Below, piece by piece: positions 34,282 through 56,900 of a DNA stretch of 64,000 bases. Both the position numbers and the translations under genes were made by a program. The stretch lies in IMG/VR virus record IMGVR_UViG_3300047284_000228, positions 32,001 through 96,000 of that record; one strand, given 5' to 3'. The DNA is from a virus. Each line of letters opens with the position of its first letter. Position 1 is the stretch's first letter. The notes beneath the pieces were generated by a model that was not told the origin of the DNA, made no database searches, and saw nothing but the letters and a program-made list of their open reading frames with translations.

Positions 34282-34493
34282 CACTGCCTCAGTCTGAGAT
34301 CCTTGAATTTGTAAAACAAATAGAAAAAGAGGCGCTGTCTATCAAAAAAGATCTTCTCAAGATCTGTTGGTATATGCGAGGTATGAGCTATTCTGATGCT
34401 ATGATGCTCAGCTATGAAGAAAGAAACATCATAGGCGAGATCATCAAAGACAATCTTGAAACTACTAAGAAAACAGGTTTACCTTTCTTTTAA
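34260..34493 (+). CDS. gp51-like baseplate assembly domain, probably expressed as a -1 frameshift extension of 33415..34281
   Basis: The -1 frame reads ...KICWYMRGMSYSDAMMLSYEER...LETTKKTGLPFF. There is no convincing independent start or RBS. Slippery A AAT TTT TTC at 34257-34266. Its TAA overlaps the convergent gene's stop (TTAA at 34490-34493). Confidence 0.6.
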   Translation, partial: FFRQRVLTLPQSEILEFVKQIEKEALSIKKDLLKICWYMRGMSYSDAMMLSYEERNIIGEIIKDNLETTKKTGLPFF

Positions 34494-35473
34494 CTTCTTC
34501 TGAACAGACTAAAGTTTTCAGTTAGACTAGCTTTGGTTCTAACAATGCTGTCAGAAGTTGGTCCCATAATTCTTGCGCGATCTGCATCGATTTCGGCCTG
34601 ACTAGGACCTGCTGGTTTCTTGGCAGGTTTTCTTTTATTTGGCTTGGGCTCTGCTGCCGCAGGTGCTGTCGTAGGTTTAGCAGCTGGTGCTGCATTTGGA
34701 TTACCTGGTTTAGCAGTATTAGTTTTACTTACCGGAGCATTTGCCATCGTGTTAGGTTGTTCTGCTCCCCCTTTGGCTAACTGTCCGACCATTTGTCCCA
34801 TTGCACTTGCACCAGCATCGGCCGCTGGTGCTGCTGCAGGTTTGGCTGCTGGCTTCTTAGCAGCGGGTCTTTCCATGGCTGCTTTAACTTTTGGATCAGC
34901 CTGGAGCATGGTTACGATTTCTTTTTTCTGTTCAGGTGCCAATGACGACACTGCTTTTTGTGCCTGAGCATATGCTGTATCAGATTTAGGTTCGTCTAAA
35001 GTTGGTTCTACTCTGCCGGCAGCAGCATCAGCGCCGCCTGCGGCTGCTGTGGTTAGTTTACCAAATGTGCTCTTAGGTGCAGCTTTGGTAGCTTTTGGTG
35101 CAGATGCTGTTCCAGTATCGGCTGCAGGTGCTGCACTACCTCCCCCAGCAGCTGGTGCTGCTCCACTACTGCTACTACCACCGGTTGCGGCTGTCTTAGT
35201 AGTACCTCCGCTTTGAGCTGTATTGCCCGTATCTGCGGCTGTGTCTGCTTCATCATCGTCACCGGCTGCGGCCACGGTAGATTTGCCTCCACGATAGCCT
35301 TTCATAAAAGCTGATCCTAGTCCGGCAACACCGCCGGCCACAGATCCCACCGCCTTGGCAGCAGTTCCTGCAACCTTGCCTACACCTTGACCAATCTTGT
35401 TAAGGATAGGGCCTTCCTGTAACACTGACAGTTCTTGTTGTTGGCTTTCGTTTAATAGTTCATTGATTTTCAT
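34490..35473 (-). CDS. putative internal head protein (Ala/Pro/Lys-rich)
   Basis: 327 aa. MKINELLNES start and LxE sites resembling gp21 cleavage sites; low-complexity PAAK repeats. Confidence 0.6.
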   Translation of the reverse strand: MKINELLNESQQQELSVLQEGPILNKIGQGVGKVAGTAAKAVGSVAGGVAGLGSAFMKGYRGGKSTVAAAGDDDEADTAADTGNTAQSGGTTKTAATGGSSSSGAAPAAGGGSAAPAADTGTASAPKATKAAPKSTFGKLTTAAAGGADAAAGRVEPTLDEPKSDTAYAQAQKAVSSLAPEQKKEIVTMLQADPKVKAAMERPAAKKPAAKPAAAPAADAGASAMGQMVGQLAKGGAEQPNTMANAPVSKTNTAKPGNPNAAPAAKPTTAPAAAEPKPNKRKPAKKPAGPSQAEIDADRARIMGPTSDSIVRTKASLTENFSLFRRS

Positions 35474-36993
35474 TTGATGTCCTCTGCGGCCTGCGGTAAC
35501 AGTCTTTCTCTGTCTGCGGCGATTTCTGCTGATTGTTTCATACCTTTGGCGCCACCTAATAGGTATTTTAACAATCTTGCCTTGCGGTCCACAGGTAATT
35601 TTGCTACCAGTTGTTTTACTGTTTCTAGATCTGCTAGAGCCTTGCCTGAGCCGGGTGCTGGTAGTTTCATTGAAGCATAGACACTCTTGATCATTTCAGT
35701 GTCAATGTTTTGTTTGGCAAGAAAATCTGCTAGCTGATCCGAATCTGTAGGACTGCCTGCTTTCTGCCAAGCAGAATTTAGTTTGTCTGCTGTGATTTTT
35801 GTGGTTAGATTTCCTGCTTTCTTAGAAACCCAGTTAGCTGCACCTTTAACCATGTCCATGGGACCTTCGTTGAGCTGTTCTGCAGCAATCCTATTGAATA
35901 CCAAATATACTTGCCCTTCACTGAGAGGTCTAGATTGTAGGTAAACACTCTCTTTCTTTTCTTTGCCGCCAGCGACACCAGCAGCAGCCACAGCACCCTG
36001 AGACACTGCCTGTAGTCCTTCTTTGGCTGCTTTGATAAAATTAAGCAGCGAATCATTTTTAATAAGTTCTTGTCTACTGATTTCTAGGGCACTTGCGATT
36101 TCTTGTTTATATTCTGCGCTGTTGATGATCTTGGCTACATTTTCTAACTGCTCAAAACCTTCGTTGGCAGCGTCACCGCCCATCCTTAATAGGGTTTCTG
36201 CTGATCTCACAGCACTGGCCATTTCAGGATCTACGATAATATCGATGCCCTGTATTTCTCGTGTCCACTCCATGCCTGGAGCAGTGATTGTTTTAGTAGC
36301 ACCAAACGATACCTGTTCAAATCCTGCATTCTCAGGACCAAATGGAAGAGATTTAATCCTAATACCTTCAGCGAATTCGCCCAGCATTTCAAATGCCTTG
36401 CCGGATAGATAACCAAATACTGCGGTCTTAACACCTTTACCAATGGCTGTGGAAAGTTTTTCGCCCTTGAGCAGTTCTACAGAACCTCTCAGTACTTGAC
36501 CAGCGATAGCGCCACCGACAGGTCCACCTGCCAACGAAGCGATGGCTGTTAATACACCGACAATGGCCGCAGTTTTTCCGGGATTGGCCTTGGCCCATTC
36601 TCCCATACCTGCGACTTTCTGTGATAGATCAGGAAACTTCTTGCTGATAGTGGCCTTGAGATCTTCAAACTTTTGATCAAAAGCCTTAACTGGTGTGGTG
36701 TCCTGTAACCACTTACCGATGTTATTGATGATCGCATCTGCTTTCTTGGCAACATCAACTCCTTTGCCTAATAGAGTCCTGTTTCCTCCAGCATCAGTGG
36801 CTGCTTTTTCCACACCACCAAATATGCCCTGTATCTGTTGAGGTGTTAGACTAGCTTCGATTAAAGGCTGTAGTTCTTTAACAATCCCCTCGACAATCTT
36901 ACGTTGTTGTTGATCAAGACCTTGACAAGACTCCACTAGTACTCTACGAGACTCCGTCAGATGATTTTCAACAAGGATATTATTAATTTTCAT
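35470..36993 (-). CDS. putative internal head / ejection protein
   Basis: 507 aa. MKINNILVENHLTES start, several LxE sites, hydrophobic AAIVGVLTAIASLAGGPVGGAIAG segment. Late promoter at 37014-37023. Confidence 0.6.
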   Translation of the reverse strand: MKINNILVENHLTESRRVLVESCQGLDQQQRKIVEGIVKELQPLIEASLTPQQIQGIFGGVEKAATDAGGNRTLLGKGVDVAKKADAIINNIGKWLQDTTPVKAFDQKFEDLKATISKKFPDLSQKVAGMGEWAKANPGKTAAIVGVLTAIASLAGGPVGGAIAGQVLRGSVELLKGEKLSTAIGKGVKTAVFGYLSGKAFEMLGEFAEGIRIKSLPFGPENAGFEQVSFGATKTITAPGMEWTREIQGIDIIVDPEMASAVRSAETLLRMGGDAANEGFEQLENVAKIINSAEYKQEIASALEISRQELIKNDSLLNFIKAAKEGLQAVSQGAVAAAGVAGGKEKKESVYLQSRPLSEGQVYLVFNRIAAEQLNEGPMDMVKGAANWVSKKAGNLTTKITADKLNSAWQKAGSPTDSDQLADFLAKQNIDTEMIKSVYASMKLPAPGSGKALADLETVKQLVAKLPVDRKARLLKYLLGGAKGMKQSAEIAADRERLLPQAAEDIK

Positions 36994-37013
36994 GGTTTGA
37001 ATCCAATATTGTT

Positions 37014-37023
37014 TATTTATTTA
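37014..37023 (-). promoter_or_regulatory. T4-type late promoter (tandem TAAATAAATA)
   Basis: About 20 nt upstream of the ATG at 36993. Confidence 0.65.
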
Positions 37024-37108
37024 AGAAACGAGCTTGCGCTCGTTTTGCGTTTTCGCTTACGCTCAACGCAATTTTTTCTTTCTTAGGATTTTTTCCGCGA
37101 AGCGGAAA
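37023..37108. other. cluster of three GC mini-hairpins (terminator-like or ssDNA origin-like)
   Basis: Minus strand AACGAGC-GCAA-GCTCGTT and TTGCGTT-GAGC-GTAA-GCGA-AAACGCAA; plus strand TTTCCGC-GAA-GCGGAAA (37092-37108). Confidence 0.6.
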
Positions 37109-37110
37109 GT

Positions 37111-37474
37111 TTAGCATTATCCAGATTTTAATGGTCACACTTAGCCCAGCTAAGGGCCAAGAGTACATTATCCGAGTTCGGCAAGTCACACAGCGTTATG
37201 GCATTACAGAGGCGGTTGTCCGGTACCTCGAGCCACGTCTTTACACAACGGCGGCCTACAACAATACGCTATCACTGCTGTAGACGTGCAGGTTTTCCCT
37301 GCTCTTTTTGCCTTTTTATCCTATTCAAACAACCAAATCGCAGGGCTTACAAGCGATCTTCATCCCGAAGGGTAGTGGTTGAGCACCTTAGCGGCAAGGT
37401 TTTCCGTCCCTGTGACCACGATTGACCAGGTATAGAGCGCACGAATTTGGGCCTGCGCTAGCCAAAAACCGCTG
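37111..37474 (-). ncRNA. candidate large structured ncRNA of unknown class
   Basis: Eight or more stems, a three-way junction with a UUCG hairpin, and two loop-pairing pseudoknots. G-U wobbles favour the minus strand. No credible ORF; starts immediately after the GIY-YIG stop codon. Confidence 0.7.
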
Positions 37475-37909
37475 TTATTTTGCCTTTTTATGTTCTTCGA
37501 GGCGCTGTCTAAGTATGTTTGATCCGCCGACTCTGACGTTTATAATGCCATTATAATAGTCATCTGTTTCTAAAACTCTGCGTTCAAACTGCTCTCTAGC
37601 CTCTAGATATGACATTTCTGCCTTGGATTTGCAAAGGTAAAGTATTTCTCTTGTGAAGTTTTCCGGACCTAATGCTTGGACGTCTGCTTGTAGCCTATCA
37701 GAAGAACCCCAGTAATCGCGCCAATCGCTTTCAACTACTGATCTTCTTTTAAGTTTTTTGCCTTTGAGAGGTGGTTTTGTGCGCTTAAACTGTGCTAGTT
37801 TTTTGCCTATGTATTTCTGTCCGGTGGTGAGATTTGTAATAAGATAAACAAAGCCAATATAGCCTTCGGGTATTTCTTCTACGGGTTGATTTTGATATGT
37901 CCACAGCAC
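37475..37909 (-). CDS. stand-alone GIY-YIG endonuclease
   Basis: 144 aa. GFVYLITN...KYIGKK (GIY/YIG), YWGSS, FTREIL, conserved Glu (YLEAREQ) and YYN. GTG start abuts the upstream stop. Confidence 0.85.
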   Translation of the reverse strand: MLWTYQNQPVEEIPEGYIGFVYLITNLTTGQKYIGKKLAQFKRTKPPLKGKKLKRRSVVESDWRDYWGSSDRLQADVQALGPENFTREILYLCKSKAEMSYLEAREQFERRVLETDDYYNGIINVRVGGSNILRQRLEEHKKAK

Positions 37910-38140
37910 TCATTTAGTTACCTTGGGGGGTCTGCCTAGCATGCCTTTTCTGGATTTCTTACGTTGCTTTCTTTTTTCTTGTATTTCTACTCGCCTTTTT
38001 GATGCCTCGTTACGTATTTCTGATAGCCAATACCTAGCTTTGATGCCTGCCTCATCTGAATTTCTGTACTCAAAACGATCTTGCCATTTAAAATACTGCT
38101 GAAATGCTTCGATCATTTTATCATGACTTTCAGTGGTCAA
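37910..38140 (-). CDS. small basic putative DNA-binding protein (Hc1/histone-H1-like hairpin)
   Basis: 76 aa. Two helices (AGIKARYWLSEI...KRRVEIQEKRK) and a very basic tail ending GRPPK. Confidence 0.5.
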   Translation of the reverse strand: MTTESHDKMIEAFQQYFKWQDRFEYRNSDEAGIKARYWLSEIRNEASKRRVEIQEKRKQRKKSRKGMLGRPPKVTK

Positions 38141-39915
38141 TCTAATATCTCCACATCGTTACTGTAACTGGTAAATCCGTTTTCTTTGATGACCTTTAAT
38201 ACATGATTTACTCGATTTGTCAGGTCGTCTCGATGGCTGATCAAGAAAACATTCTTATCACGTTCTCTAGTCATCCTCTTGAGTACAGCGATACTTGATT
38301 CGACACCACTGGCGTCCATGCCCGAGTCTACTAGTTCGTCGATAAACAGTAGATTGATGCTGGTATATAAATTTTCCCATACATCTCTAAATGCCCAGCT
38401 TAGACTTAGGATTAATCTATTACGTTCACCTCGACTCAGATTATCGAAATCTAGGTCTTGTCCTAGTTGTGTAATGGTCACAGTTAGATCATTCTGGAAT
38501 TCTACGATATGGGGTAGTCCGATCTTGTCTAGATAATAGGTTAGACGCTGATTTAAAAATGCTAGATTCTGGTCAATGATGCGCTTACGGACAAAACTAT
38601 CTTTGTTGGTCAACAATTTATGCAGGAATTCTTGATGATCTTTAACTCTAGTCAATTCGTTGACAGAATTCCAGTCGATTTCTTGTACGGCAGTTTTGCG
38701 TAGCTCGTCGATCTGTTCACCGTAGGGATTAGATTCTGCTTCTTTGATACTAAGGTCTCTTTCTAGACTTTCTAGAGTGTTCTTATGATTCAGTGCTTCC
38801 TCTAGGCTGTTATAAATCACAGTAGGACATGCACCGAGATCTCCCAGCAGTCCGAGAGCTTCGTTGAGTGTAGCTAGTTCTGTTTCATATTCTTTGATCA
38901 AAGCTAGACTATCTTCGACTTGTTTGGATTTAGCAGTGACCATATCTTCATGTTTATGATCGTGTATGTCCTGACCGCAGGCATGGCACTTATGTTCAGC
39001 TAATAAGACCAGTTCTTTTTCTAGCTTTTCTAGCATACGCTGTTCTTTGTCCAATGTCGATGTCTGTTTAGCGATCAATGCAGTAAGACTGTCTTTCTCT
39101 TTTTTGTTTTTTGACCAATCCGAGAGATTTTTTTGATCTAGTATTTCTTGATCGATGTCTATGTTACTGAGACGGTCTATGCTTTTTCTTAGATTTTCAA
39201 GACTTGACTCTTTTTGATCTTCCCAGATCTTCTGCTTTCTCTCTAGAGCTTCGATGCTTTGTTGTATACGATCGTTGGATGCCTTTACAGTTTCAATCCT
39301 TGTGTTTTCGGTTGAGATAGCATCTTTGGTATGTTTGATCTGTTCTTTGAGGTTTTCTGCTTTTTCACTGAGCTGTGTGATTCCTAATAGCTGCTCAATG
39401 ATAGATCTTTGATCCGCAGCCTTCATACTAAGGAACGGTTCGGTATAAGTGTTGAGAGCAACTAAATGTTTGAACATCTCGTGGCTCATAGAAAACACTT
39501 CTTCGATGGACTTCTGTGTTTCTCTGCTGTCTCCCTGCGACTCGTCTAGGTCTTTAAGTTCCTGTTCTTCTCCGTTGATACTAAATTTTAAAAGATTAGG
39601 TTTGCGTCCACGTTCGATGTGATACTCAACTCCGTCTTTTTCAAAGGTCACAGTGACCAACATACCTTTGCTGTTGATCTTATTGATAAGATTATCGCGC
39701 TTGATGTTGGTTAGGGCTTGACCGTAGATAGCATAGCTCAGTCCGTTGATGATTGTAGTTTTGCCTGTTCCGTTGCGGGCGCCAGAGTCATCACCTCCTA
39801 GATCTAAATTTTCACCTAGGACCAAGGTCAACTGCCCACGGTCAAAGTCGATAGCCTGGGTTTGATTACCCACGCTCATGAAATTTCTTACAGTTAGATT
39901 CTTTATCTTGATCAT
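38137..39915 (-). CDS. gp46: recombination endonuclease ATPase subunit (gp46 / SbcC / Rad50)
   Basis: 592 aa. Walker A NGTGKT, coiled coil with CHAC zinc hook, signature LSRGE, Walker B LLFIDE, ISH switch. Confidence 0.95.
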   Translation of the reverse strand: MIKIKNLTVRNFMSVGNQTQAIDFDRGQLTLVLGENLDLGGDDSGARNGTGKTTIINGLSYAIYGQALTNIKRDNLINKINSKGMLVTVTFEKDGVEYHIERGRKPNLLKFSINGEEQELKDLDESQGDSRETQKSIEEVFSMSHEMFKHLVALNTYTEPFLSMKAADQRSIIEQLLGITQLSEKAENLKEQIKHTKDAISTENTRIETVKASNDRIQQSIEALERKQKIWEDQKESSLENLRKSIDRLSNIDIDQEILDQKNLSDWSKNKKEKDSLTALIAKQTSTLDKEQRMLEKLEKELVLLAEHKCHACGQDIHDHKHEDMVTAKSKQVEDSLALIKEYETELATLNEALGLLGDLGACPTVIYNSLEEALNHKNTLESLERDLSIKEAESNPYGEQIDELRKTAVQEIDWNSVNELTRVKDHQEFLHKLLTNKDSFVRKRIIDQNLAFLNQRLTYYLDKIGLPHIVEFQNDLTVTITQLGQDLDFDNLSRGERNRLILSLSWAFRDVWENLYTSINLLFIDELVDSGMDASGVESSIAVLKRMTRERDKNVFLISHRDDLTNRVNHVLKVIKENGFTSYSNDVEILD

Positions 39916-40922
39916 AATTCTTTGTAAATGTCTACTAATAGACCCTTGTCATAGGTATCGCTTTCGATAGCATTGATCTGATTCAGAACGATCGTGTCTA
40001 CTGATTCAAATTGAATATCTATCGCTACCTGTGAAGTTTCAATTTCTACTTTTTCTGGAATCAACATCAATTCTCGCAGATTATACTGCGGAATAAACTG
40101 CTCTTTGATGAAATTTGCTTCTTCGAAAGTGATAGGCAGATCTATGGTCACCCGACAGTGCATTTTTTCTTTGAGTAACTCGTCTGGGCGATCGATGATC
40201 TGGCTTAACTTGTATATTCTATAAACAGGCTGACCGGGCCAAGTTCGATACTCTGGCACACCACCCCATTCTAAGATCATCATGCCACGCTCGTCGTCAC
40301 CTGCGTCTGCATAATTGTGCGGAAATGCATTGCCTATATAGACGATATTAGCAGCCTGTTGTCGTTTGTGAAAGTGCCCTGTAAACACATAGTCTTGATT
40401 GACAAAGTGAGAACGTTGAATAGTACCGTGATCGGGCATCTGTACCATGGCATTCATGTAAAAGCTAGGTAATTCTAGATGTCCAAAGATATATCGACTT
40501 TTAATGTTAGGAATATCTTTCCATTCGTCGGCTACTAGCCAGGGCATGATAGTGACATTGCCCTGAGTAAGTGTATCTTTGATGGGAACGATGTTAGGAA
40601 ACAGCCGCATAAACTCGATAGAGTTAATTTCACGTTTGTCCTTATAGAACAAGTCGTGGTTTCCTAGAATAAAATACACTTTCTCAAAATTTTGACTTAG
40701 TCTTTCTAAGTTTGACACAGTATAGTTCATAGTACTCACGTCAGTGGTACTGCGATTGTGATGCCAATCACCTAAGAAGATACAGGTTTCTGCGCCTTCT
40801 GCTCGAGCAGTTTCGCAAAACCATTTTACAAACTCTTCACAATCGATATTGTGAGTACGACTACCTGATTTCAACCCAAAGTGTATGTCAGTAAAACAGG
40901 CTACTTTTTTGAAAAGATTCAT
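39912..40922 (-). CDS. gp47: recombination endonuclease nuclease subunit (gp47 / SbcD / Mre11)
   Basis: 336 aa. DIHFG, GDWHH, GNHD, GH and GHFH metallophosphoesterase motifs; translationally coupled to gp46. Confidence 0.95.
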   Translation of the reverse strand: MNLFKKVACFTDIHFGLKSGSRTHNIDCEEFVKWFCETARAEGAETCIFLGDWHHNRSTTDVSTMNYTVSNLERLSQNFEKVYFILGNHDLFYKDKREINSIEFMRLFPNIVPIKDTLTQGNVTIMPWLVADEWKDIPNIKSRYIFGHLELPSFYMNAMVQMPDHGTIQRSHFVNQDYVFTGHFHKRQQAANIVYIGNAFPHNYADAGDDERGMMILEWGGVPEYRTWPGQPVYRIYKLSQIIDRPDELLKEKMHCRVTIDLPITFEEANFIKEQFIPQYNLRELMLIPEKVEIETSQVAIDIQFESVDTIVLNQINAIESDTYDKGLLVDIYKEL

Positions 40923-40952: not shown

Positions 40953-41810
40953 TCAATCCCAATCACTACCATCTACAGGAGCGGTATTCACAGCACCTGC
41001 TCCACTGCCCGAGTTTTGTCTGGTCCAACTTGGGTTCATACCATTCATTTCAAGAATGTCGTCTCGAATGTTTTGGTTGCGTTTTTCGATGTTGATAATT
41101 CGCACGAATGAATTAGTAACAGCAGCGGTATAATAAGCAAAAGGATTATCGGATTTAGATTCATCGAACTGTAAGCCTATCTGAGTTAACTGTAGAATAG
41201 CCTGTCCACGCATTTCGTCGTTGTAGGTGTAGCCTCGAACGTTGCCTCTAGTAGCATATCGTTCGCAGAGTTTTAGGAACATACGAGCTAGATTGTTGGT
41301 CATCTGACCGTGTTCTTTGTTAAACGATCCTGTGTTTAGATCTCCCTTCCAGTGGCTCTTACCTACACAGATTAGGTTATCGTTATCATCAAACTTCCAG
41401 TGTTGGAAAGGAGGAAAGTTTACTTTATCGTGGCTGTCTGCGGTATTCTTAAGAGTTTTCTTACGACCAGGAGCCAGCGGAATATGTTCGAATGTCATGA
41501 TTCTAAACACTAGATCGTGTTTGGAAATTTTCTTATAGTCTATTTCGTGTTCCTTGGCTGATGATTTTTTGCCGGTTTTTTGAGCCGCTTCGTGTGCCTG
41601 CTTACTAAGTTTAGCTGCTTTATTTCTTTTAGCTTCGGCTATGGTTCTAATATTGATCTTGGCTAGATTAGGAAGAATAATATCGTAATCAGCGTAGATC
41701 GGATCCGTAAAGGTACAGAAGGTATTTTTGCTTAGATGTATTTCTCTTAGTAAATCTTTGTTAGTTAGGTATTTTATTTTTTGTTCTGTCATATACTCAG
41801 TATTCTCCAA
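40953..41810 (-). CDS. gp55: late-transcription sigma factor (gp55-like); ATG at 41792 is an alternative start
   Basis: KYLTNKDLL.EI start and RGYTYNDEM...FDESKSDNPFAYYT..V.NSFVRIINIEK match gp55 motifs. Order gp55-gp47-gp46 as in T4-like phages. Confidence 0.85.
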   Translation of the reverse strand: MENTEYMTEQKIKYLTNKDLLREIHLSKNTFCTFTDPIYADYDIILPNLAKINIRTIAEAKRNKAAKLSKQAHEAAQKTGKKSSAKEHEIDYKKISKHDLVFRIMTFEHIPLAPGRKKTLKNTADSHDKVNFPPFQHWKFDDNDNLICVGKSHWKGDLNTGSFNKEHGQMTNNLARMFLKLCERYATRGNVRGYTYNDEMRGQAILQLTQIGLQFDESKSDNPFAYYTAAVTNSFVRIINIEKRNQNIRDDILEMNGMNPSWTRQNSGSGAGAVNTAPVDGSDWD

Positions 41811-50945: not shown

Positions 50946-53900
50946 ATGGCACAAGAATTTTTTCCAGAAAGCGGATTACCTATTAGAAGAACAGTAGAAC
51001 TTCTACCTAGTATCTTTCAAACCGAAAGCAATAGTAAATTTCTATCGGCAGTATTGGATCCTTTGGTCCAGCCAGGAACATTACAGAAAACTGTGGGATA
51101 TATCGGCAGAAGGTATGGCAAGACCTATGTACCTACCGACATATATCTAGATACTGACAATACTCTGCGCAGTCGATATCAGTTAGAACCTGGAGTAACT
51201 GTTAAAGAAAATAACAGAGTAACTTCCTTCTACGATTATCTAGATTTTAAAAATCAAATTAAATTTTTCGGAAATTTAGAAGAATACGATGCTATAGTTA
51301 CTAGCCAAGATCATTATACTTGGACTCCGCCGATTGACTGGGATAAGTTTGTTAACTATAGAGAATATTATTGGGTTCCTGCAGGCCCTCCTCCAGTGAC
51401 CATTGCAGGACAAGCCCAGAGAATTGTCAGTACCTATAGAGTAGCTCTTGGTACAGGCAGTGTGTTTATTTTCACGCCGGACGGTATGTCTAATAACCCA
51501 ACTATTACTTTGTATAGAGGACAGACATACAAATTCCAAGTTAGTGTTCCCGGACACGGCTTTACTATCAAGACCAATGTTGACATAGGAAGATTAACAT
51601 TTGATCCTAATAGAAATTATACTCCAGGCGAGCTAGTGGTATTCGATGAAAAGTTATGGAAAGCTAAAACAAACATTTCTTCTACTGACGGAAGCACCAT
51701 AGACGAAAATAGTCAGGATTGGGAATATGTCGAGGATGTTGGTATCGCCAGTCAGTTTGATTATAATACAGGAGTTACAAATAACGGTGCCGAACGAGGA
51801 ACAGTTACTTTTGAAGTTCCTATGAATGCTCCCGATGTACTGTTTTATCAAAGTACCACAGATATAAACAGGGTTGGTAGATTTATCATAGCCGATGTCG
51901 ACACCAATACAAAAATAGATGTCGAAAAAGAAATTCTAGGTAAAGTAACCTATACCAGTAGTAATGATGTTACATTAACTAACGGCATGATAATCTATTT
52001 TTCAGGAAAGGTCAGCCCTGAAAAATATTCAAATTTAGATGATAAGTGGTTAGTTGAAGGTGTAGGAAAAAAAATCACTCTTACGAAATTCACTGATTTA
52101 ATCGTATCTGCTAGCCTAAGCGGCAACAACATAGACGAAATATTATTTGATAACGGTGGATTTGACACACAACCGTTTGATGATGCAACAGCATATCCTG
52201 CTAAAAAAGATTACCTTACCATTAATAGATCTAGTGTAGATTCAAATCCTTGGTCGCGATATAATAGGTGGTTTCATAGAAGTGTATTAGATTATTCTCA
52301 TACATTTAACGGTTCGAGTTTTGAAGCCACTGAAGATTCTCGTGCTAAAAGACCAATTGTAGAATTCAAAGCTAATCTACAGCTTTTTAATCATGGTGCC
52401 CTAGCTAAACAGACAGTAGACTACATCGATGATTTTACCAGTGACGTGTTTTCTACAGTAGAAGGTAGCAGCGGTTATCTTGTAGATGGCGAAGCTTTGT
52501 TTGAAGGAGCAAGAGTATTGGTCACTGCCGATACTGATAGCCTGGCCAATAATCAAATATATGTAGTACATTTTATTACACACAATGGTTCAAAACAGAT
52601 CAATCTAAAGAAAGCCGCAGACGGCGATTCAATAATCAACGAATGTGTACTGATTAGACGAGGAGTTAAAAATTCTGGCCTAATGTATCATTACAATGGT
52701 ACTACCTGGATAAAGAGTCAAGAAAAAACAAGTTCTAATCAAGAACCGCTTTTTGACTTATTCGACGACAATGGAGTTTCTTTCTCTGATATTGACACGT
52801 ATCCGGTATCGACTTTTGCTGGAACTAGAATTTTAGGTTATCAACAAGGCTCCGGGGTAGTAGATACGGAATTGGGATTTTCTCTATCTTATCTTAACAT
52901 TGAAAATGTCGGAGATATAAAGTTCAGTTACGATTTAGATTATCAAGATTTTAATTATAAAGTTTTAGATACACGATATACTAAAAAATACAAGACAGGA
53001 TTTTATAAATTTAATCCTGATAATCAATACGGAAACGGTTGGATTTTATTAGACAACGAATATTCTCAACCTATAATAGATACTACAGTTGTAGACGAGA
53101 TTACTGATACGATTGTTTCAACCGCAGTAGATTGGAGTAATGTACAAGAATCTCAAATTAGAAAAATTGTATTTTATAAAAATGGAATCAGATCTAGAGT
53201 TTCTTGGCAGCGACAAGACAACAGGTTTATTTTCGAAGAAAAATTTCAAGTCAACGATACTGTAACAATCAAGATTTTTGCCGATCTAGATCCGGCCACT
53301 GGGTATTATGAGTTGCCATTGGGTCTTGAAAAAAATCCCCTCAACGACGAAATTGAGTCTTTTACTCTGGGCCAAGCTTCGGATCATGTGTTAACAGGTC
53401 TAGATCTAACAGATAATTTCGAAGGGTTATTCCCTGGAAAAAACAATCTAAGAGACTTAGATGATTTTCAAAATAGATGTAATAGATTCTTAAAACATAG
53501 TAATGTTTCTCCTTTGTCTGTTCTCAGTCTATGCGACAAAGAAGTTAATATTATCAAATCTATACAATACGCTAAAAAAGCCTATACAGATTTTAAAAAT
53601 ACATTTATCGACCTAGCCTATAATCTGTATTCTGATCAGGAACCGAGAGATTTTGTTGATCAGATATTAGAAGAAATCAGTAAATCTCAAAACTCATCAA
53701 GACCATTTTCTGAATCTGATATGGTAGGCAGCGGAGCTTTTACATCTATTGATTATACTGTTGAAGATACAGGAATTAAAACATTTGCTTTGTCGAGTAA
53801 GTTTGATCTAGACACACTCAGTTCTAGAGCAGTATATGTTTATCGTAATGGAGTACAGTTATTACATGGTACACAGTACGAATTTAATTCTACATTTGGT

Positions 53901-56900
53901 TTTATTAATTTAACGATAGAGTTGGCAGAAGGCGATGAGATACAGATCAGAGAATATGTTTCTTCTTATAGTAACTATATTCCTCCAACACCAACAAAAT
54001 TAGGTCTCTATAAAAAGTATACTCCTATGAAGTATCTAGACGATACATTCATATCACCTAGAGAAGTCATACAAGGACACGACGGAAGCCTTACGGCGTC
54101 GTATGGAGATTTCCGAGATGATTTATTATTAGAATTAGAATATAGAATTTATAATAATATTAAACAAAAATATGATGAAAATATTTTTGATAATGATCTA
54201 GTATTAGGCGGATATTACGGAAATTCTCTCTACGATAAACCCTCAGTTGATAGTATAGTGTCGTTGGAATTTTTAAAATGGATCGCTGATACTAATATTG
54301 ATTATATCAACAATCTTTATTTTGACAGCGAAGAATCATTTACCTATACCTACTCAAATATGACAGACCCTACCGGTACTAAAAACCTGCCCGGTTACTG
54401 GAGAGGAGTATATAAATGGTTCTATGACACAGACAGACCTCATCTGTGTCCTTGGGAAATGTTAGGTTTTTCGGAAAAACCAACATGGTGGGAAAGTGAA
54501 TATGGTCCCGCACCTTATACAAAAAATAATCTGATACTTTGGGAAGATCTACGTGACGGTATAATTCGTCATGGAAACAGAGCAGGAACATACAAAAGAT
54601 ATCAGCGACCGTCTCTTATAGGACATATTCCCGTAGATGGTGACGGTAACTTAGTAAGCCCTCTTAATTCTGGACTAGCAACCAATTTTACGTTGTTTAA
54701 TAATCAAGGATCGTTCGACCTTGGTAGTGTTGCCCCAGTAGAAGCAGCCTGGAGATCCAGTTCAGAATGGCCATTTGCTTATATAATAGCCTTATGTCTG
54801 TTAAAACCTTTTGAATATATCACAGACAATTATAATAAATCTGAAATAGGTCTTAACGTTTTAGGACAGACTATTAATAAAAACACAGGTACGTTTTCAA
54901 CAATTTCAGATATTATTTTTGAAAATTCATCGACTAAGATTGTTTCTGGTCTAGTAAACTATGTTGCAGATTATCTTAAGAGTAAAACAACTCCTATAGA
55001 TGTACTCAAAGATAAGATAACACATATTGATGTAAATCTCAGTACACGACTTTCTGGTTTTGTAGATCAAAGTCAACAGAAATATCTACTAGATAGCAAA
55101 AATCCAAACTCGTCTACGAGTAATATTTTTATTCCTCAGGAAAATTACGATATAATCTTTAATGTAAGTTCTCCTATATTTTCTTTAGTATACAGTGGTG
55201 TAATCTTAGAAAAGACTACACAAGGATGGAGACTACAGGGATATGATAATAAGAATCCGTTCTTCTACTATTACGAGGCATTGACTTCTCAGTCAGATCC
55301 CATTATATCGGTTGGAGGTGTCAGCGAAAGCTTCTTAAACTGGAGCGAAGAAAAATTTTACGGCAATGGTGTTGTTGTCAAATACAATAATAATTATTAT
55401 AGAAGTTTATCGAGTCATACCAGTACTACTGTATTTGATAAAACATTATGGAAGCAACTTCCTGATCTTCCTTTAAAAAATGCTGTCCAAGCATTTAGAA
55501 GAAACAAGTTCAACAGACTGTCTCTAAGGAAAATGCCTTATGGTCGTATTATGTCTAGGATCCAAGAAGTGGTTGATTTCTTATTAGGATATCAAGAATA
55601 TCTAATAAGCATCGGATTCGTATTTGATGGGTATGATGCAGCAACACAGAGCACTGCTGACTGGTTCACATCTGTAAAAGAATTCATGTTCTGGACCAAG
55701 CATAATTGGAGCAACGGTTCACTATTAACACTGAGCCCTAGCGCAGCAAAAATAACCGCCGAAGTTTCTATAGGTGTTGCGGACAATTTCCTAGACAGTT
55801 TCTACGATTATCAAATATTGAGAGAAGACGGAACTCCGTTGCAGCCTAATTTTATTAATGTGGCCAGAGATCATAAGCAACTAGTATTATCCACAGTTGA
55901 TACAAATGCAGGAATTTATTTTATGAGAGCAAATTTTGTTCTCAAAGAGCATGTGACTGTATTTGATGATCGAACAGTTTTCAACGATGTTATCTACGAT
56001 AAGCCGACCGGATATCGCCAGATGAGAATTAAGAGTCGAGGTTTCCGAACAGTTGATTGGGACGGTGACTATACCAGTCCAGGATTTATCTTTGATAATG
56101 TAAAAATAGAAACCTGGAGACCGTTCACTGATTACAGATTAGGCGATATTGTCGCATACAAATCTTATTATTGGGTCAGCAAACAAAATCAATTAGGCTC
56201 TGAAAATATCGATGAGACAAAGTGGTCAAAATTAGATTCTGTTCCTACTAAAGGATTAGTCTCTAACTTTGATTATAGAATTAGTCAGTTCGGTGACTAC
56301 TATGAAGTTGAAGCAGACGGAGTAGGTTCAAGTCAGAGAGATCTAGCTAGACACGCTATTGGCTATCAGTCCAGAGAATATTTACAAGCTCTAGCCGAAG
56401 ACGAAGTTAGTCAATTTAGAATCTATCAAGGCTTTATCAGAGAAAAAGGCACAGCTAATTCCATAGTTAAAGTGTTCGATAAGTTGAGTCGTAGCAAAGA
56501 CGATAGTATCGTACTGAACGAAGAATGGGCTTTCAAGATCGGAGAGTTTGGCGGCACCGATCAAACAAAAGAAGTTGAGTTTTTAATCACTAAAGACTCA
56601 TTAGTAATTAATCCTCAGCCGGTATTGGTTGTATCATCTAAGAGCAACGTGATCGTTGATCAAAATCTTAGAATTGATCCTTCGATGTTTACCATTAGGT
56701 CAAAAACATTTACTACTGACATTAATCCTGTTGAGTTCTATAAAGGAACTTCCCGTTCTGCCGGCTATGTACATAAATCAGATGTTGACTATGTTGCAGC
56801 GAACAGAGACGGAATTCTTGACATCGATATTTCGCAGGTCAATGACGGAGCCCATATCTGGATTACATTTGACAGATATACATGGACAGTGCTGAGATAT

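What the first reader, a model, noticed from the sequence alone, without database searches (positions are those of the whole stretch)
37111..37474. Large pseudoknotted non-coding RNA candidate directly downstream of the GIY-YIG gene
Seen: this is the only long gap (~480 nt) in an otherwise gene-dense window, and on the minus strand it is nearly all paired. Stems: AGCGCA/TGCGCT (37436-37459); CCTG/CAGG; ACCTT/AAGGT, whose loop GCCGCT is complementary to the 5'-end AGCGGT at 37468-37473 (pseudoknot 1); a three-way junction CAACCA/TGGTTG enclosing CC-UUCG-GG and GATCGC/GCGATT; GCAGG-GAAAA-CCTGC. A 13-bp stem GTCTACAGCAGTG/TATTGTTGTAGGC has several G-U pairs, and its loop ATAGCG is complementary to CGCTGT at 37190-37195 (pseudoknot 2). 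Further stems are GTGGC/GCCAT enclosing GAGG..CCTC, and CTTGGCCC/GGGCTAAG. The G-U pairs work only on the minus strand, which argues for RNA rather than DNA cruciforms. Inference: a complex ncRNA comparable in ornateness to known large phage/bacterial RNAs, but I cannot match it to tRNA, tmRNA, RNase P or group I/II intron cores.
Basis: partly seen in the sequence, partly recalled or inferred. Interest (0 to 1): 0.88.

Follow-up and report, generated by a model that had tools for sequence, protein, structure and literature searches.

The report
Full-length Polynucleobacter-1 twin-box phage RNA
The gene-free stretch behind a small nuclease gene of this uncultured giant freshwater T4-like phage encodes a real non-coding RNA of about 450 bases with three pseudoknots. 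Its first third is the orphan Rfam motif Polynucleobacter-1; the rest is uncatalogued, carries one short word twice, and has no known job.

Summary
The novelty claim is only partly right. Window 37327-37463(-) is a full-length, 101-bit match to Rfam RF01718 (Polynucleobacter-1), an orphan motif from 2010. The new parts are these:
- That motif is only the 5' domain of an RNA of about 450 nt (about 37488 to 37022).
- The RNA has an uncatalogued 3' domain and a third pseudoknot.
- PK1 has a 5' strand that lies outside the Rfam model.
- Two "twin boxes" (37179-37166 and 37128-37115) had identical variable letters in 122 of 122 RNAs, despite at least 24 switches on the tree.

The RNA is a core element of this phage lineage: 48 of 48 gp46-anchored relatives have it. 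Diverged full-length copies sit in Polynucleobacter and Limnohabitans chromosomes without any GIY-YIG gene, next to a DUF6641 gene. The small GIY-YIG gene also occurs widely without the RNA. An RNA-guided nuclease is therefore unlikely.

My best reading, which is inferred, is a trans-acting, bivalent scaffold or decoy RNA made at the end of the gp55-gp47-gp46 operon. The function is unproven. This scan has met the same family repeatedly on other DNA.

The parts
37475..37909 (-). Context gene: a 144-aa GIY-YIG-only protein (PF19835 SegE_GIY-YIG, phrog_447). It is the last ORF of the gp55-gp47-gp46-p76 operon.
   Evidence: Pfam 2.4e-36. phrog_447 1.1e-39. A homologue ends at the RNA's 5' end in nearly all type-A loci.
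37482..37488 (-). Conserved AGGC(A/U) leader motif 8-12 nt upstream of PK1, inside the last codons of the ORF. This is the probable 5' limit of the RNA element. The same motif recurs in the inter-domain linker.
   Evidence: It is kept in most loci whatever the frame or stop position of the upstream ORF. Its role is unknown.
37468..37473 (-). PK1 5' strand (AGCGGU). It lies outside the Rfam model.
   Evidence: It pairs with 37390-37395. There are compensatory changes at 3 of 6 pairs. It also covaries in the bacterial copies: CUACCG/CGGUAG against CUACUG/CAGUAG, read.
37327..37463 (-). 5' domain, which is Rfam RF01718 Polynucleobacter-1 (P1, P2, P3, and the three-way junction P4/P4a/P4b). The P3 loop at 37390-37395 is the PK1 3' strand.
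   Evidence: cmscan 101.1 bits, model positions 1-141 of 141. Helices 2-9.
37303..37326 (-). A-rich linker with the conserved motif AGGCAAAAAGA.
   Evidence: Invariant or near-invariant columns in A1. Direct repeat with 37478-37498.
37288..37302 (-). Hairpin Ha (5 bp, purine-rich loop).
   Evidence: 4 of 4 counted pairs are compensatory (helix 10).
37254..37285 (-). Hairpin Hb (12 bp). Its loop at 37266-37272 is the PK2 5' strand.
   Evidence: 12 of 12 pairs are compensatory (helix 12).
37245..37249 (-). PK3 5' strand (GUUGU).
   Evidence: It pairs with 37215-37219 in the Hd loop. The MI ranks are 10, 25 and 31. 3 of 5 pairs are compensatory (helix 14).
37198..37236 (-). Hc enclosing Hd. The 11-nt Hd loop ACCGGNNNACC (37214-37224) is nearly invariant, except for the part that forms PK3.
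   Evidence: helices 15 and 16. The top MI pair is 37235:37199. The motif GGUAYMG-N3-RACCGCC retrieves more than 120 further viral loci.
37190..37196 (-). PK2 3' strand.
   Evidence: 6 of 7 pairs are compensatory (helix 13).
37166..37191 (-). Module A: GUGUGAC (37191-37185), a short variable stretch, then twin box A, XYA-CUC-PQ-AUAAUG (37179-37166).
37140..37161 (-). Hairpin Hf (8 bp).
   Evidence: helix 17. The alignment is partly out of register here. MI pair 37158:37143.
37115..37140 (-). Module B: GUGUGAC (37140-37134), a short variable stretch, then twin box B, XYA-UCU-PQ-AUAAUG (37128-37115).
   Evidence: The PQ dinucleotide is identical to that of box A in 122 of 122 unique RNAs, with at least 24 changes on the tree. 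Rare variants (GAUGAU, GAUGAA, GAAUAAU) are also duplicated in both boxes.
37095..37105 (-). CUUCG-loop hairpin, followed by a variable A-rich spacer (37070-37094).
   Evidence: Conserved with covarying stems in A1 (helix 18).
37047..37069 (-). Hairpin T1 with an inner GUAA-capped stem.
   Evidence: 5 of 5 outer pairs are compensatory (helix 19).
37022..37044 (-). GCAA-capped hairpin plus a U-rich tail. This is the probable intrinsic terminator and 3' end of the RNA.
   Evidence: 4 of 7 pairs are compensatory (helix 22). MI ranks 3, 9, 12 and 22. The simple consensus scan did not flag it.
37012..37022 (-). AAUAAAUAAA, which resembles the T4 late promoter TATAAATA, ahead of the next gene (ATG at 36993). 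It is not part of the RNA.
   Evidence: Conserved block in A1. The consensus is from my general knowledge of T4. A gp55 late sigma factor is encoded at 40953-41810.

Best explanation
SHOWN. Window ~37488-37022 (minus strand) is a single-copy gene for a structured non-coding RNA of about 450 nt. It is the full-length form of the Rfam orphan family Polynucleobacter-1. It has two domains. The 5' domain is RF01718 closed by pseudoknot PK1. The uncatalogued 3' domain is locked by pseudoknots PK2 and PK3. The 3' domain presents two near-identical modules, each ending in a 14-nt "twin box". The RNA sits at the end of the gp55-gp47-gp46-p76-GIY-YIG operon and is followed by a terminator hairpin. It is present in every relative of this jumbo T4-like lineage that I could test.

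INFERRED. It is transcribed as the 3' end of that operon. No sigma-70-like promoter was seen on its strand, and contigs from RNA libraries bridge the ORF/RNA junction. It then acts in trans as a compact scaffold. The two boxes hold two copies, or a dimer, of one outside partner, protein or nucleic acid, making it a bivalent decoy or adaptor. It is not a guide for the neighbouring nuclease and not a cis-regulator of the next gene.

The confidence of 0.4 refers to this mechanism. That it is a real RNA of this family I put at about 0.95.
For: - Identity: RF01718 at 101 bits, full length.
- Whole-RNA structure: 88.7% of cells paired against 34-43% for slid controls, 64 of 102 pairs compensatory, 0 of 500 shuffles as high. 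An unbiased MI scan recovers the same helices plus PK3.
- Strand: G-U pairs are common and A-C pairs rare.
- Non-coding.
- The 3' domain is contiguous with the motif in about 88 of 100 loci found through the 5' domain. Most of the >120 loci found through the 3' domain are full length.
- Core element: 48 of 48 gp46-anchored relatives (62-85% aa identity) carry it. It is single copy in 2 complete phage genomes of 355-365 kb.
- Twin boxes: PQ is identical in 122 of 122 RNAs with at least 24 switches, and rare variants are duplicated too. No Watson-Crick partner was found inside the RNA. This fits two equivalent sites read by one outside partner.
- Separation from the next gene: a covarying terminator hairpin and a late-promoter-like block lie in between.
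- Transcription: contigs from four independent freshwater or river metatranscriptome studies cover the ORF and the RNA and bridge the junction at 37474. This is weak evidence, because they are contigs only.
- Independence from GIY-YIG: bacterial copies lack the nuclease. The GIY-YIG family occurs in 457 GenBank phage records; in the one I inspected, Melnitz, no RNA lies within 3 kb of the gene, and the RNA has no blastn match anywhere in the phage collection. No GIY-YIG or p76 residue tracks the box state above the gp46/gp47 baseline.
Against: - No partner has been identified.
- No copy or complement of the boxes occurs beyond chance in the window's contig, within about 10 kb in 186 loci, in two complete phage genomes, or in the P. 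rarus chromosome for its own boxes.
- A protein partner would have to tolerate or follow at least 24 changes of box sequence, which is awkward.
- Thermodynamic folding does not predict the boxes to be especially exposed: P(unpaired) is 0.45-0.53 against 0.41 overall.
- Transcript ends, strand and abundance are not measured, since only assembled contigs were available.
- In phages a small nuclease gene (GIY-YIG, or PD-(D/E)XK in L058 and L129) lies directly upstream or within about 2.5 kb. This may mean more than synteny.
Confidence: 0.4

Rival explanations
1. Decoy or counterpart of a host RNA-protein system. Freshwater Burkholderiales carry a diverged form of the same RNA, divergently paired with a DUF6641 (phrog_31551) gene. 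The phage copy, which has no DUF6641, mimics or hijacks that host RNA in a phage-host conflict. The fast-changing twin boxes are the contested specificity sites.
For: - In 7 of 7 bacterial loci inspected, a DUF6641 gene is transcribed divergently from the RNA's 5' end.
- A second DUF6641 paralogue in P. rarus has its own, more diverged RNA with its own twin boxes.
- Four complete phage genomes lack DUF6641 and the neighbouring 137-aa gene.
- The boxes switch state at least 24 times among close relatives.
- Precedent, from my own knowledge: phage-encoded pseudo-ToxI RNA against ToxIN.
Against: - The RNA is a universal, syntenic core element of the phage lineage, unlike typical accessory anti-defence genes.
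- The constant core of the boxes differs between phage (AUAAUG) and bacteria (CGAAAG or UAAAG), so direct mimicry is doubtful.
- The function of DUF6641 is unknown. Its model has no fold match, and no paper mentions it.
- The hosts of these phages are not known.
Confidence: 0.12
2. Cis-acting 3' module of the gp55-gp47-gp46 operon. It would be a structured 3' UTR that protects the mRNA from 3' exonucleases, sets processing or termination, and insulates early/middle from late transcription. It would have no trans function.
For: It lies at the operon end, starts at the stop codon of the last ORF, ends in a terminator and is followed by a late-promoter-like block. RNA-library contigs bridge ORF and RNA.
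Against: - About 450 nt with three covarying pseudoknots, many invariant unpaired nucleotides and concertedly evolving twin boxes is far more than 3'-end protection needs.
- The bacterial copies are not at the 3' end of an operon. They are divergent from their neighbour.
- Upstream genes vary while the RNA stays.
Confidence: 0.12
3. RNA subunit of the adjacent small nuclease. The domain-poor GIY-YIG protein, or the PD-(D/E)XK protein that replaces it, uses the RNA for target recognition, with an architecture like OMEGA or HEARO. The twin boxes would be the specificity segments.
For: - The 144-aa protein is essentially the catalytic domain alone (PF19835 positions 1-123).
- It ends at the RNA's 5' end in nearly all type-A loci.
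- In L058 and L129 an unrelated small nuclease (PF24608 PD-(D/E)XK) occupies the same slot.
- The boxes are variable between genomes.
Against: - The RNA exists without any such nuclease in bacterial chromosomes.
- The GIY-YIG family (phrog_447) is in 457 GenBank phage records; Melnitz (65% identity), the one inspected, has no RNA within 3 kb of the gene, and the RNA has no blastn match in that collection.
- One or two genes are inserted between the two in several loci.
- No residue of GIY-YIG covaries with box state above the baseline.
- Only about 4-7 box positions vary, and no matching target was found.
- The gene diverges in step with gp46, as expected from plain vertical synteny.
Confidence: 0.07
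4. Replication-origin or primer RNA, like ColE1 RNA II or T4 oriF/oriG. The folded transcript would form a persistent hybrid near the downstream mini-hairpins and prime DNA synthesis. The bacterial copies would be remnants of small replicons or satellites.
For: - It is single copy per genome.
- It lies at the end of an early/middle operon with GC-rich mini-hairpins downstream.
- It occurs in small bacterial modules next to mobile-element genes: an IS3-type integrase-core transposase near L265, and duplicated modules in Limnohabitans.
- The size and ornateness recall RNA II (my own knowledge).
Against: - The cumulative GC-skew minimum lies at about 40-42 kb, at the strand switch, not at the RNA.
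- The downstream hairpins covary with G-U pairs, as RNA does.
- Nothing in the model explains the twin boxes.
- The bacterial copies lie among ordinary chromosomal genes such as LysR and aconitase.
- No antisense regulator or Rep gene was seen.
Confidence: 0.07
5. A ribozyme, self-processing or otherwise catalytic, whose conserved unpaired nucleotides form an active site.
For: It has a compact multi-pseudoknot fold with many invariant unpaired nucleotides, such as CACAGGGAYGGAAA, CACUAYCC and ACCGG...ACCGCC. It abuts an ORF from which it might need to be released.
Against: No match to any ribozyme or intron model in Rfam, even at E<=10. There is no flanking-exon logic. Catalysis would not explain the twin boxes.
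Confidence: 0.05

Closest known systems
Polynucleobacter-1 RNA motif (Rfam RF01718; Weinberg et al. 2010, Genome Biol 11:R31, PMC2864571)
   Same: The window's 37327-37463(-) matches the whole 141-position model at 101 bits, with the same helices. The habitat is the same, freshwater Burkholderiales and freshwater metagenomes. The function is unknown in both.
   Different: The catalogued motif is only the 5' third. The published table lists it as a likely cis-regulatory candidate, with 'switch ?'. Here it is the first domain of an RNA of about 450 nt. That RNA has a PK1 strand outside the model, an uncatalogued 3' domain, PK2, PK3, twin boxes and its own terminator. Most copies are in jumbo T4-like phages.
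GOLLD (RF01998) and ROOL (RF03087), large ornate RNAs of phages and prophages (cryo-EM: bioRxiv 10.1101/2024.12.08.627333, listed)
   Same: They are large, intricately folded RNAs of unknown function encoded by phages and by bacterial chromosomes, and they lack coding potential.
   Different: There is no sequence or structure match and no neighbouring tRNA genes. This RNA is smaller. The twin-box feature is not described for them. Whether this RNA multimerises was not tested.
HEARO / omega-RNA of IscB and TnpB (OMEGA systems)
   Same: A structured RNA of several hundred nt lies directly beside a small nuclease gene.
   Different: The nuclease class differs (GIY-YIG or PD-(D/E)XK). There is no terminal hypervariable guide segment and no transposon ends. 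The RNA and the nuclease each occur without the other.
Bivalent or multivalent protein-sponge RNAs (CsrB/RsmZ, 6S RNA)
   Same: They are trans-acting RNAs that present repeated equivalent sites to titrate a partner. This is the working analogy for the twin boxes.
   Different: The frequent box variants GC and AG lack the GGA of CsrA sites. There is no 6S-like rod with a bubble. The analogy concerns mechanism only; membership is not claimed.
ColE1 RNA II / T4 origin transcripts
   Same: They are long structured transcripts ending near a hairpin-rich DNA segment, one per replicon.
   Different: There is no skew signal at the site, no antisense RNA I equivalent, and the chromosomal bacterial copies lie in non-replicon contexts.

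Membership tests
Rfam RF01718 Polynucleobacter-1 | Covariance-model score at or above the curated gathering score (37 bits) over the full model | tested here: met
   101.1 bits, E 1e-20 to 1e-22, model positions 1-141 of 141, window 37327-37463(-).
Rfam RF01718 Polynucleobacter-1 | The model's helices (P1, P2, P3 and the multi-stem junction with two hairpins) are kept by compensatory change | tested here: met
   Helices 2-9. MI pairs 37456:37439, 37428:37411, 37398:37387, 37381:37330 and 37355:37339.
Rfam RF01718 Polynucleobacter-1 | Stand-alone motif of about 140 nt in a 5' UTR (candidate cis-regulator, as catalogued) | tested here: not met
   The motif always continues into a conserved 3' domain. 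A terminator separates it from the next gene. This is a description of context, not a defining sequence feature, so membership stands.
Group I / group II introns, RNase P, tmRNA, tRNA | Match to the family's covariance model or to ARAGORN | tested here: not met
   No hit at gathering score in 64 kb, none at E<=10 in 36900-37600, and no tRNA or tmRNA.
OMEGA / HEARO-type RNA-guided nuclease | Obligate co-occurrence of the RNA with its nuclease gene | tested here: not met
   The RNA occurs without a nuclease in Burkholderiales chromosomes. The nuclease family occurs without the RNA.
OMEGA / HEARO-type RNA-guided nuclease | A contiguous hypervariable guide segment matching a DNA target | tested here: not met
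   Only interleaved positions (XY, PQ and 2-3 tail letters) vary. No complementary site was found.
OMEGA / HEARO-type RNA-guided nuclease | Physical RNA-protein complex | not testable with these tools
   The complex predictor takes proteins only. This needs a pull-down.
GOLLD / ROOL large ornate RNAs | Covariance-model match; frequent adjacency to tRNA genes | tested here: not met
   No Rfam hit. No tRNA in the window.
Type III toxin-antitoxin antitoxin RNA | Tandem array of short repeats directly upstream of an endoribonuclease toxin gene | tested here: not met
   There are two non-tandem boxes 51 nt apart inside a large fold. No ToxN-like gene is adjacent.
Replication-origin primer RNA (ColE1 RNA II-like) | Origin activity or strand-composition switch at the site | tested here: inconclusive
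   The GC-skew minimum is at about 40-42 kb, at the transcription strand switch, not at 37 kb. Skew is a poor origin marker in T4-like phages.

The most novel reading that the evidence does not exclude
The twin boxes are a programmable, two-site specificity module of an undescribed RNA-protein conflict system shared by jumbo phages and their Burkholderiales hosts. The same RNA chassis works with interchangeable small effector proteins: GIY-YIG or PD-(D/E)XK nucleases in phages, and DUF6641 in bacteria. The boxes select an outside nucleic-acid target in a rival phage, satellite or host by a non-contiguous code.
Probability: 0.06. Interest if true: 0.92.

Novelty: new variant of a known kind. 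Interest (0 to 1): 0.62.

Why it matters
Large bacterial or phage RNAs of 400 nt or more with unknown function are few (OLE, GOLLD, ROOL, raiA, HEARO), and each has opened new biology. This analysis shows that a 15-year-old orphan Rfam motif is only the first third of such an RNA. It defines the remainder: three pseudoknots and a conserved 3' domain. It shows that the RNA is a core gene of a whole lineage of roughly 350-kb freshwater T4-like phages.

The analysis also gives two experimental handles. The first is the twin boxes, whose strict concerted evolution is a clear mutational test (change one box, or change both). The second is the set of cultured Polynucleobacter and Limnohabitans strains that carry a chromosomal relative beside a DUF6641 gene. 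They make the question testable without a cultured phage. Finally, the work argues against the tempting "RNA-guided GIY-YIG nuclease" reading.

Tried and rejected
- blastn of the RNA against 50,697 GenBank phages found no match, so no cultured phage carrier was found.
- A mistyped 3'-domain pattern (one N too many) wasted a scan and gave two chance hits.
- I searched for a partner of the twin boxes. There is no extra copy or complement in the 110-kb contig. Nothing consistent appears within about 10 kb in 186 loci. Counts in two complete phage genomes and in the P. rarus chromosome do not exceed the reversed-pattern control.
- GIY-YIG and p76 residues do not covary with box state. Mutual information is no higher than for gp46/gp47, and the top GIY-YIG columns are gappy tail columns.
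- A stem closing module A looked plausible by eye but is no better than shuffled partners (8 of 50 shuffles).
- Predicted accessibility of the boxes is uninformative.
- Self-complementarity or box A-box B pairing, checked by hand, works for some box variants (UCUAGA, UCUGGA) but not for GC or GA, so I rejected it.
- Resemblances to CsrA sites, -10 elements, lambda boxA/boxB and anticodon loops, also checked by hand, are not kept across variants.
- The DUF6641 fold model has pLDDT 70 and no PDB match at E<=0.001. A protein-atlas look-up of the neighbouring 137-aa protein gave only unnamed clusters. No paper mentions DUF6641.
- GC skew shows no inflection at the RNA.
- The consensus scan found no sigma-70-like promoter for the RNA on its strand. 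It also missed the terminator that covariation supports.
- In the metatranscriptome lay, all runs are assembled contigs, so strand, ends and level cannot be read. The uncovered bins (36722-36965 and 37088-37148) are not evidence of anything.
- Phage genomes have no homologue of DUF6641 or of the bacterial 137-aa neighbour. These are empty answers, with the caveats the tools state.
Full report
WHAT IS THERE. The window is part of a 110.8-kb IMG/VR viral contig, estimated 32% complete, from a T4-like phage. On the minus strand lie a gp55 late sigma factor (40953-41810), a gp47/Mre11-like phosphoesterase (39912-40922) and a gp46/Rad50-like ATPase (38137-39915). After these come a basic 76-aa ORF and a 144-aa GIY-YIG-only protein (37475-37909). 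Then comes a 481-nt stretch without a credible ORF up to the next ATG at 36993.

KNOWN PART. A scan of the whole window against Rfam 15 gives a single hit. RF01718, Polynucleobacter-1 RNA, matches 37327-37463(-) at 101.1 bits (gathering score 37) over model positions 1-141 of 141 (alignment). The only paper in the searchable library that names this family is the 2010 catalogue by Weinberg et al. It lists the family as a likely RNA and possible cis-regulator, with 'switch ?', from Burkholderiales and fresh water or estuary. The rest of the candidate (37326 to 37111 and beyond) has no Rfam match even at E<=10.

THE MOTIF IS ONLY A 5' DOMAIN. A pattern taken from the motif's invariant core retrieved 100 viral contigs. 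In about 88 of them the 330 nt downstream of the motif are homologous to the window (72-76% identity; blastn and nhmmer E 1e-35 to 1e-56). Anchoring on gp46 instead of the RNA, 48 of 48 relatives (62-85% aa identity) with enough downstream DNA have the RNA. Two complete genomes of 355-365 kb have exactly one copy each. It is therefore a single-copy core element of this jumbo-phage lineage.

STRUCTURE.
- I computed a mutual-information scan (APC-corrected) with no folding assumption on 122 unique type-A sequences. Its top column pairs are almost all Watson-Crick pairs.
GUUGU (37249-37245) pairs with ACAAC (37219-37215) in the otherwise invariant 11-nt loop of hairpin Hd.
- I wrote the full model (22 helices, 102 pairs, three bracket types) onto alignment A1. 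88.7% of cells pair, against 34-43% when partners are slid by 1-3 columns. 64 pairs have compensatory changes. The covariation score is 0.333 against 0.05-0.08. None of 500 shuffles reaches any observed measure.
- PK1 has compensatory changes at 3 of 6 pairs, PK2 at 6 of 7 and PK3 at 3 of 5.
- The 5' strand of PK1 (37473-37468) lies outside the Rfam model and starts one base after the stop codon.
- G-U pairs are abundant and A-C pairs rare, so the RNA is read from the minus strand.
- The region does not code. The window's + strand ORF is open in 2 of 122 homologues, the longest ATG-ORF has a median of 39 aa, and variability is the same in all three codon phases.
The tail is followed by AAUAAAUAAA, which resembles the T4 late promoter (my own knowledge).
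- Upstream, an AGGC(A/U) motif sits 8-12 nt before PK1 in most loci, whatever the frame or stop position of the upstream ORF. The same motif recurs in the linker between the domains.
- I therefore place the RNA at about 37488 to 37022, roughly 450-465 nt.

TWIN BOXES. The 3' domain contains two similar modules, each made of GUGUGAC, a few variable bases, then XYA-(CUC or UCU)-PQ-AUAAU-R. In all 122 unique type-A RNAs the PQ dinucleotide is the same in both boxes: AG 45, GG 38, GC 36, GA 3. On a tree built without the box columns this state changes at least 24 times. XY and the letters after AUAAU mostly match as well. Rare changes inside the 'constant' core (GAUGAU, GAUGAA, GAAUAAU) also appear in both boxes at once. 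The fixed difference of CUC in box A and UCU in box B is kept. In this window box A is 37179-37166 and box B is 37128-37115. PQ is GG in both, while XY differs (GA against AA), which is one of the minority cases. I found no Watson-Crick partner for the variable letters in any of these places:
- within the RNA;
- in the 110-kb contig;
- within about 10 kb in 186 loci;
- in two complete phage genomes, where counts do not exceed the reversed-pattern control.

RELATION TO THE NUCLEASE.
- In type-A loci a homologue of the 144-aa GIY-YIG protein (52-97% identity) ends at the RNA's 5' end. The loci are syntenic with the window, and the protein diverges in step with gp46. This pattern is vertical inheritance, not recent homing.
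- There are exceptions. One or two unrelated genes are inserted between the two in L023 and several type-B loci. In L058 and L129 a PD-(D/E)XK nuclease (PF24608) takes the GIY-YIG slot.
- The GIY-YIG protein belongs to phrog_447, mislabelled 'NAD synthetase'. It has relatives in 457 GenBank T4-like phage records. In the best hit, Methylophilales phage Melnitz at 65% identity, no such RNA lies within 3 kb of the gene.
- No residue of GIY-YIG or of the 76-aa protein tracks box state above the gp46/gp47 baseline.

BACTERIAL RELATIVES.
- The motif pattern also hits GTDB genomes. About 28 of the hits are real.
- Three are phage-like contigs binned into MAGs. The others are diverged, full-length relatives in freshwater Burkholderiales. 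They include the isolates Polynucleobacter rarus MT-CBb6A5 and Limnohabitans sp. Bal53, and a closed Burkholderiaceae chromosome.
- They keep PK1 with covariation (CUACCG/CGGUAG against CUACUG/CAGUAG), the Hd-type hairpin, the two modules and the twin boxes. The boxes have a different constant core: GAA-CUC-NN-CGAAAG and GAA-UCU-NN-CGAAAG. I read these features directly.
- None has a GIY-YIG gene upstream. In 7 of 7 loci inspected, the neighbour on the 5' side is a divergently transcribed DUF6641 gene (PF20346, phrog_31551). The wider surroundings are ordinary chromosomal genes plus, in P. rarus, an integrase-core (rve, IS3-type) transposase.
- P. rarus has four DUF6641 paralogues. A second one (L309) carries its own, more diverged RNA with its own twin boxes.
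- Limnohabitans Bal53 has a second, truncated copy.
- Four complete phage genomes lack DUF6641 and the neighbouring 137-aa gene.
- The DUF6641 model (pLDDT 70) has no PDB fold match.

OTHER PHAGE TYPES. The 3'-domain pattern also found RNAs that share the 3' domain and twin boxes but have a different 5' domain with no Rfam hit. These are type B (for example L115 and L119) and type C (L109, L175, L211). A diverged Polynucleobacter-1 form, type D, scores 77 and 47 bits. The 3' domain is thus the more widely shared part of the family.

EXPRESSION. Fifteen or more freshwater, lake and river runs recorded as RNA hold small shares of the stretch. I laid four runs from four studies. Their contigs (82-99% alike) cover the GIY-YIG ORF and the RNA from 37149 to 37474, and some bridge the junction (37380-37521 and 37351-37488). 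These are assembled contigs, so they show presence in RNA libraries. That is compatible with co-transcription, but they give no strand, ends or level. No sigma-70-like promoter was found on the RNA's strand just upstream.

HOW IT MOST LIKELY WORKS. Shown: it is a real, strand-specific, non-coding, compactly folded two-domain RNA that is core to its lineage, and it is the full-length form of Polynucleobacter-1. Inferred: it is made as the 3' end of the gp55-gp47-gp46 operon transcript and works in trans. The strict identity of two sites that have no internal partner fits best an RNA that presents two equivalent sites to one outside partner, as a bivalent scaffold or decoy. I give this about 0.4. 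The weak point is that the partner is unseen, and that a protein partner would have to tolerate or follow at least 24 box changes. The rivals, with their odds, are these:
- a counterpart or decoy of the host DUF6641-RNA system (0.12);
- a purely cis-acting 3' module (0.12);
- an RNA subunit of the neighbouring nuclease (0.07);
- a replication primer or origin RNA (0.07; the GC-skew minimum is at the strand switch near 41 kb, not at the RNA);
- a ribozyme (0.05).

EARLIER NOTES OF THIS SCAN. The same family has been reported several times on other DNA as a 'twin-box' or 'extended Polynucleobacter-1' phage RNA. I re-derived the main points independently: the Rfam identity, the twin boxes, the operon context, and the nuclease-free copies in Polynucleobacter. 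None of the notes returned by my look-ups mentions three things I add here. These are the recurrent pairing with DUF6641 in bacteria, including a second paralogue with its own RNA (a look-up for 'twin-box DUF6641' found nothing), the PD-(D/E)XK replacement of GIY-YIG, and pseudoknot PK3.

VERDICT. Novelty: a new, much larger variant of a known orphan family. The function remains open.

Noticed in passing
L115, L118, L119, L127, L146, L160-L162, L168, L184, L186, L189, L194, L203, L209 (type B); L109, L175, L211 (type C): These are related phage RNAs that share the 3' domain and twin boxes. Their 5' domain of about 250 nt is different and matches no Rfam family. By eye, type B has a long-range helix (GGAUUUGUUAUCG with AUAAUAAAU) in place of the PK2 arrangement.
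   Followed up: partly
L265, L268, L292, L291, L294, L251, L257, L309 (bacterial genome contigs): Chromosomal relatives of the RNA in Polynucleobacter, Limnohabitans and other Burkholderiales lie next to a divergently transcribed DUF6641 (PF20346 / phrog_31551) gene, and often an unnamed gene of 137-142 aa. P. rarus has four DUF6641 paralogues, at least two of them with an RNA.
   Followed up: partly
L229 versus L268 (Limnohabitans sp. Bal53): There is a second copy of the '137-aa gene - DUF6641 - RNA' module in which the RNA is identical for about 220 nt and then breaks off into unrelated sequence. It may be a truncated duplicate or a recombination or insertion boundary.
   Followed up: no
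L058:4127-4642, L129:3963-4484: In two type-A loci a 'phage putative PD-(D/E)XK endonuclease' (PF24608) of 171-173 aa occupies the slot directly upstream of the RNA in place of the GIY-YIG gene.
   Followed up: partly
L023:5112-6488: A radical-SAM / B12-binding-domain gene (458 aa) and a 151-aa ORF are inserted between the GIY-YIG gene and the RNA in one phage.
   Followed up: no
window 37475-37909: The small GIY-YIG protein belongs to phrog_447. Many GenBank phage records annotate it as 'NAD synthetase', which looks like a propagated misnomer for a GIY-YIG catalytic-domain protein.
   Followed up: partly
window 37910-38140: This is a 76-aa ORF with a strongly basic C-terminal tail (…KRKQRKKSRKGMLGRPPKVTK). 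It is conserved upstream of the GIY-YIG gene in many relatives (31-84% identity) and has no Pfam or PHROG match.
   Followed up: no
window 37288-37302 (+ strand): Read on the plus strand, hairpin Ha followed by TCTTTTTGCC scores as a terminator-like site. It could stop antisense transcription into the RNA gene.
   Followed up: no
window 3782-12136, 12195-17654, 50946-63998: Three very large ORFs (2784 aa, 1819 aa, and more than 4351 aa running off the window), as expected of a jumbo phage. I did not examine them.
   Followed up: no
window 34490-36993: The two genes downstream of the RNA (507 aa and 327 aa) have no Pfam or PHROG match. They are the most variable part of the otherwise syntenic region: relatives carry genes of 215-586 aa, or oppositely oriented genes, at this position.
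   Followed up: no
L240, L230, L235 (MAG contigs labelled Polynucleobacter / Bacteroidetes): These short contigs in bacterial MAGs carry phage-type RNAs (nhmmer 360-454 bits). They are probably phage contigs binned with bacterial genomes.
   Followed up: no
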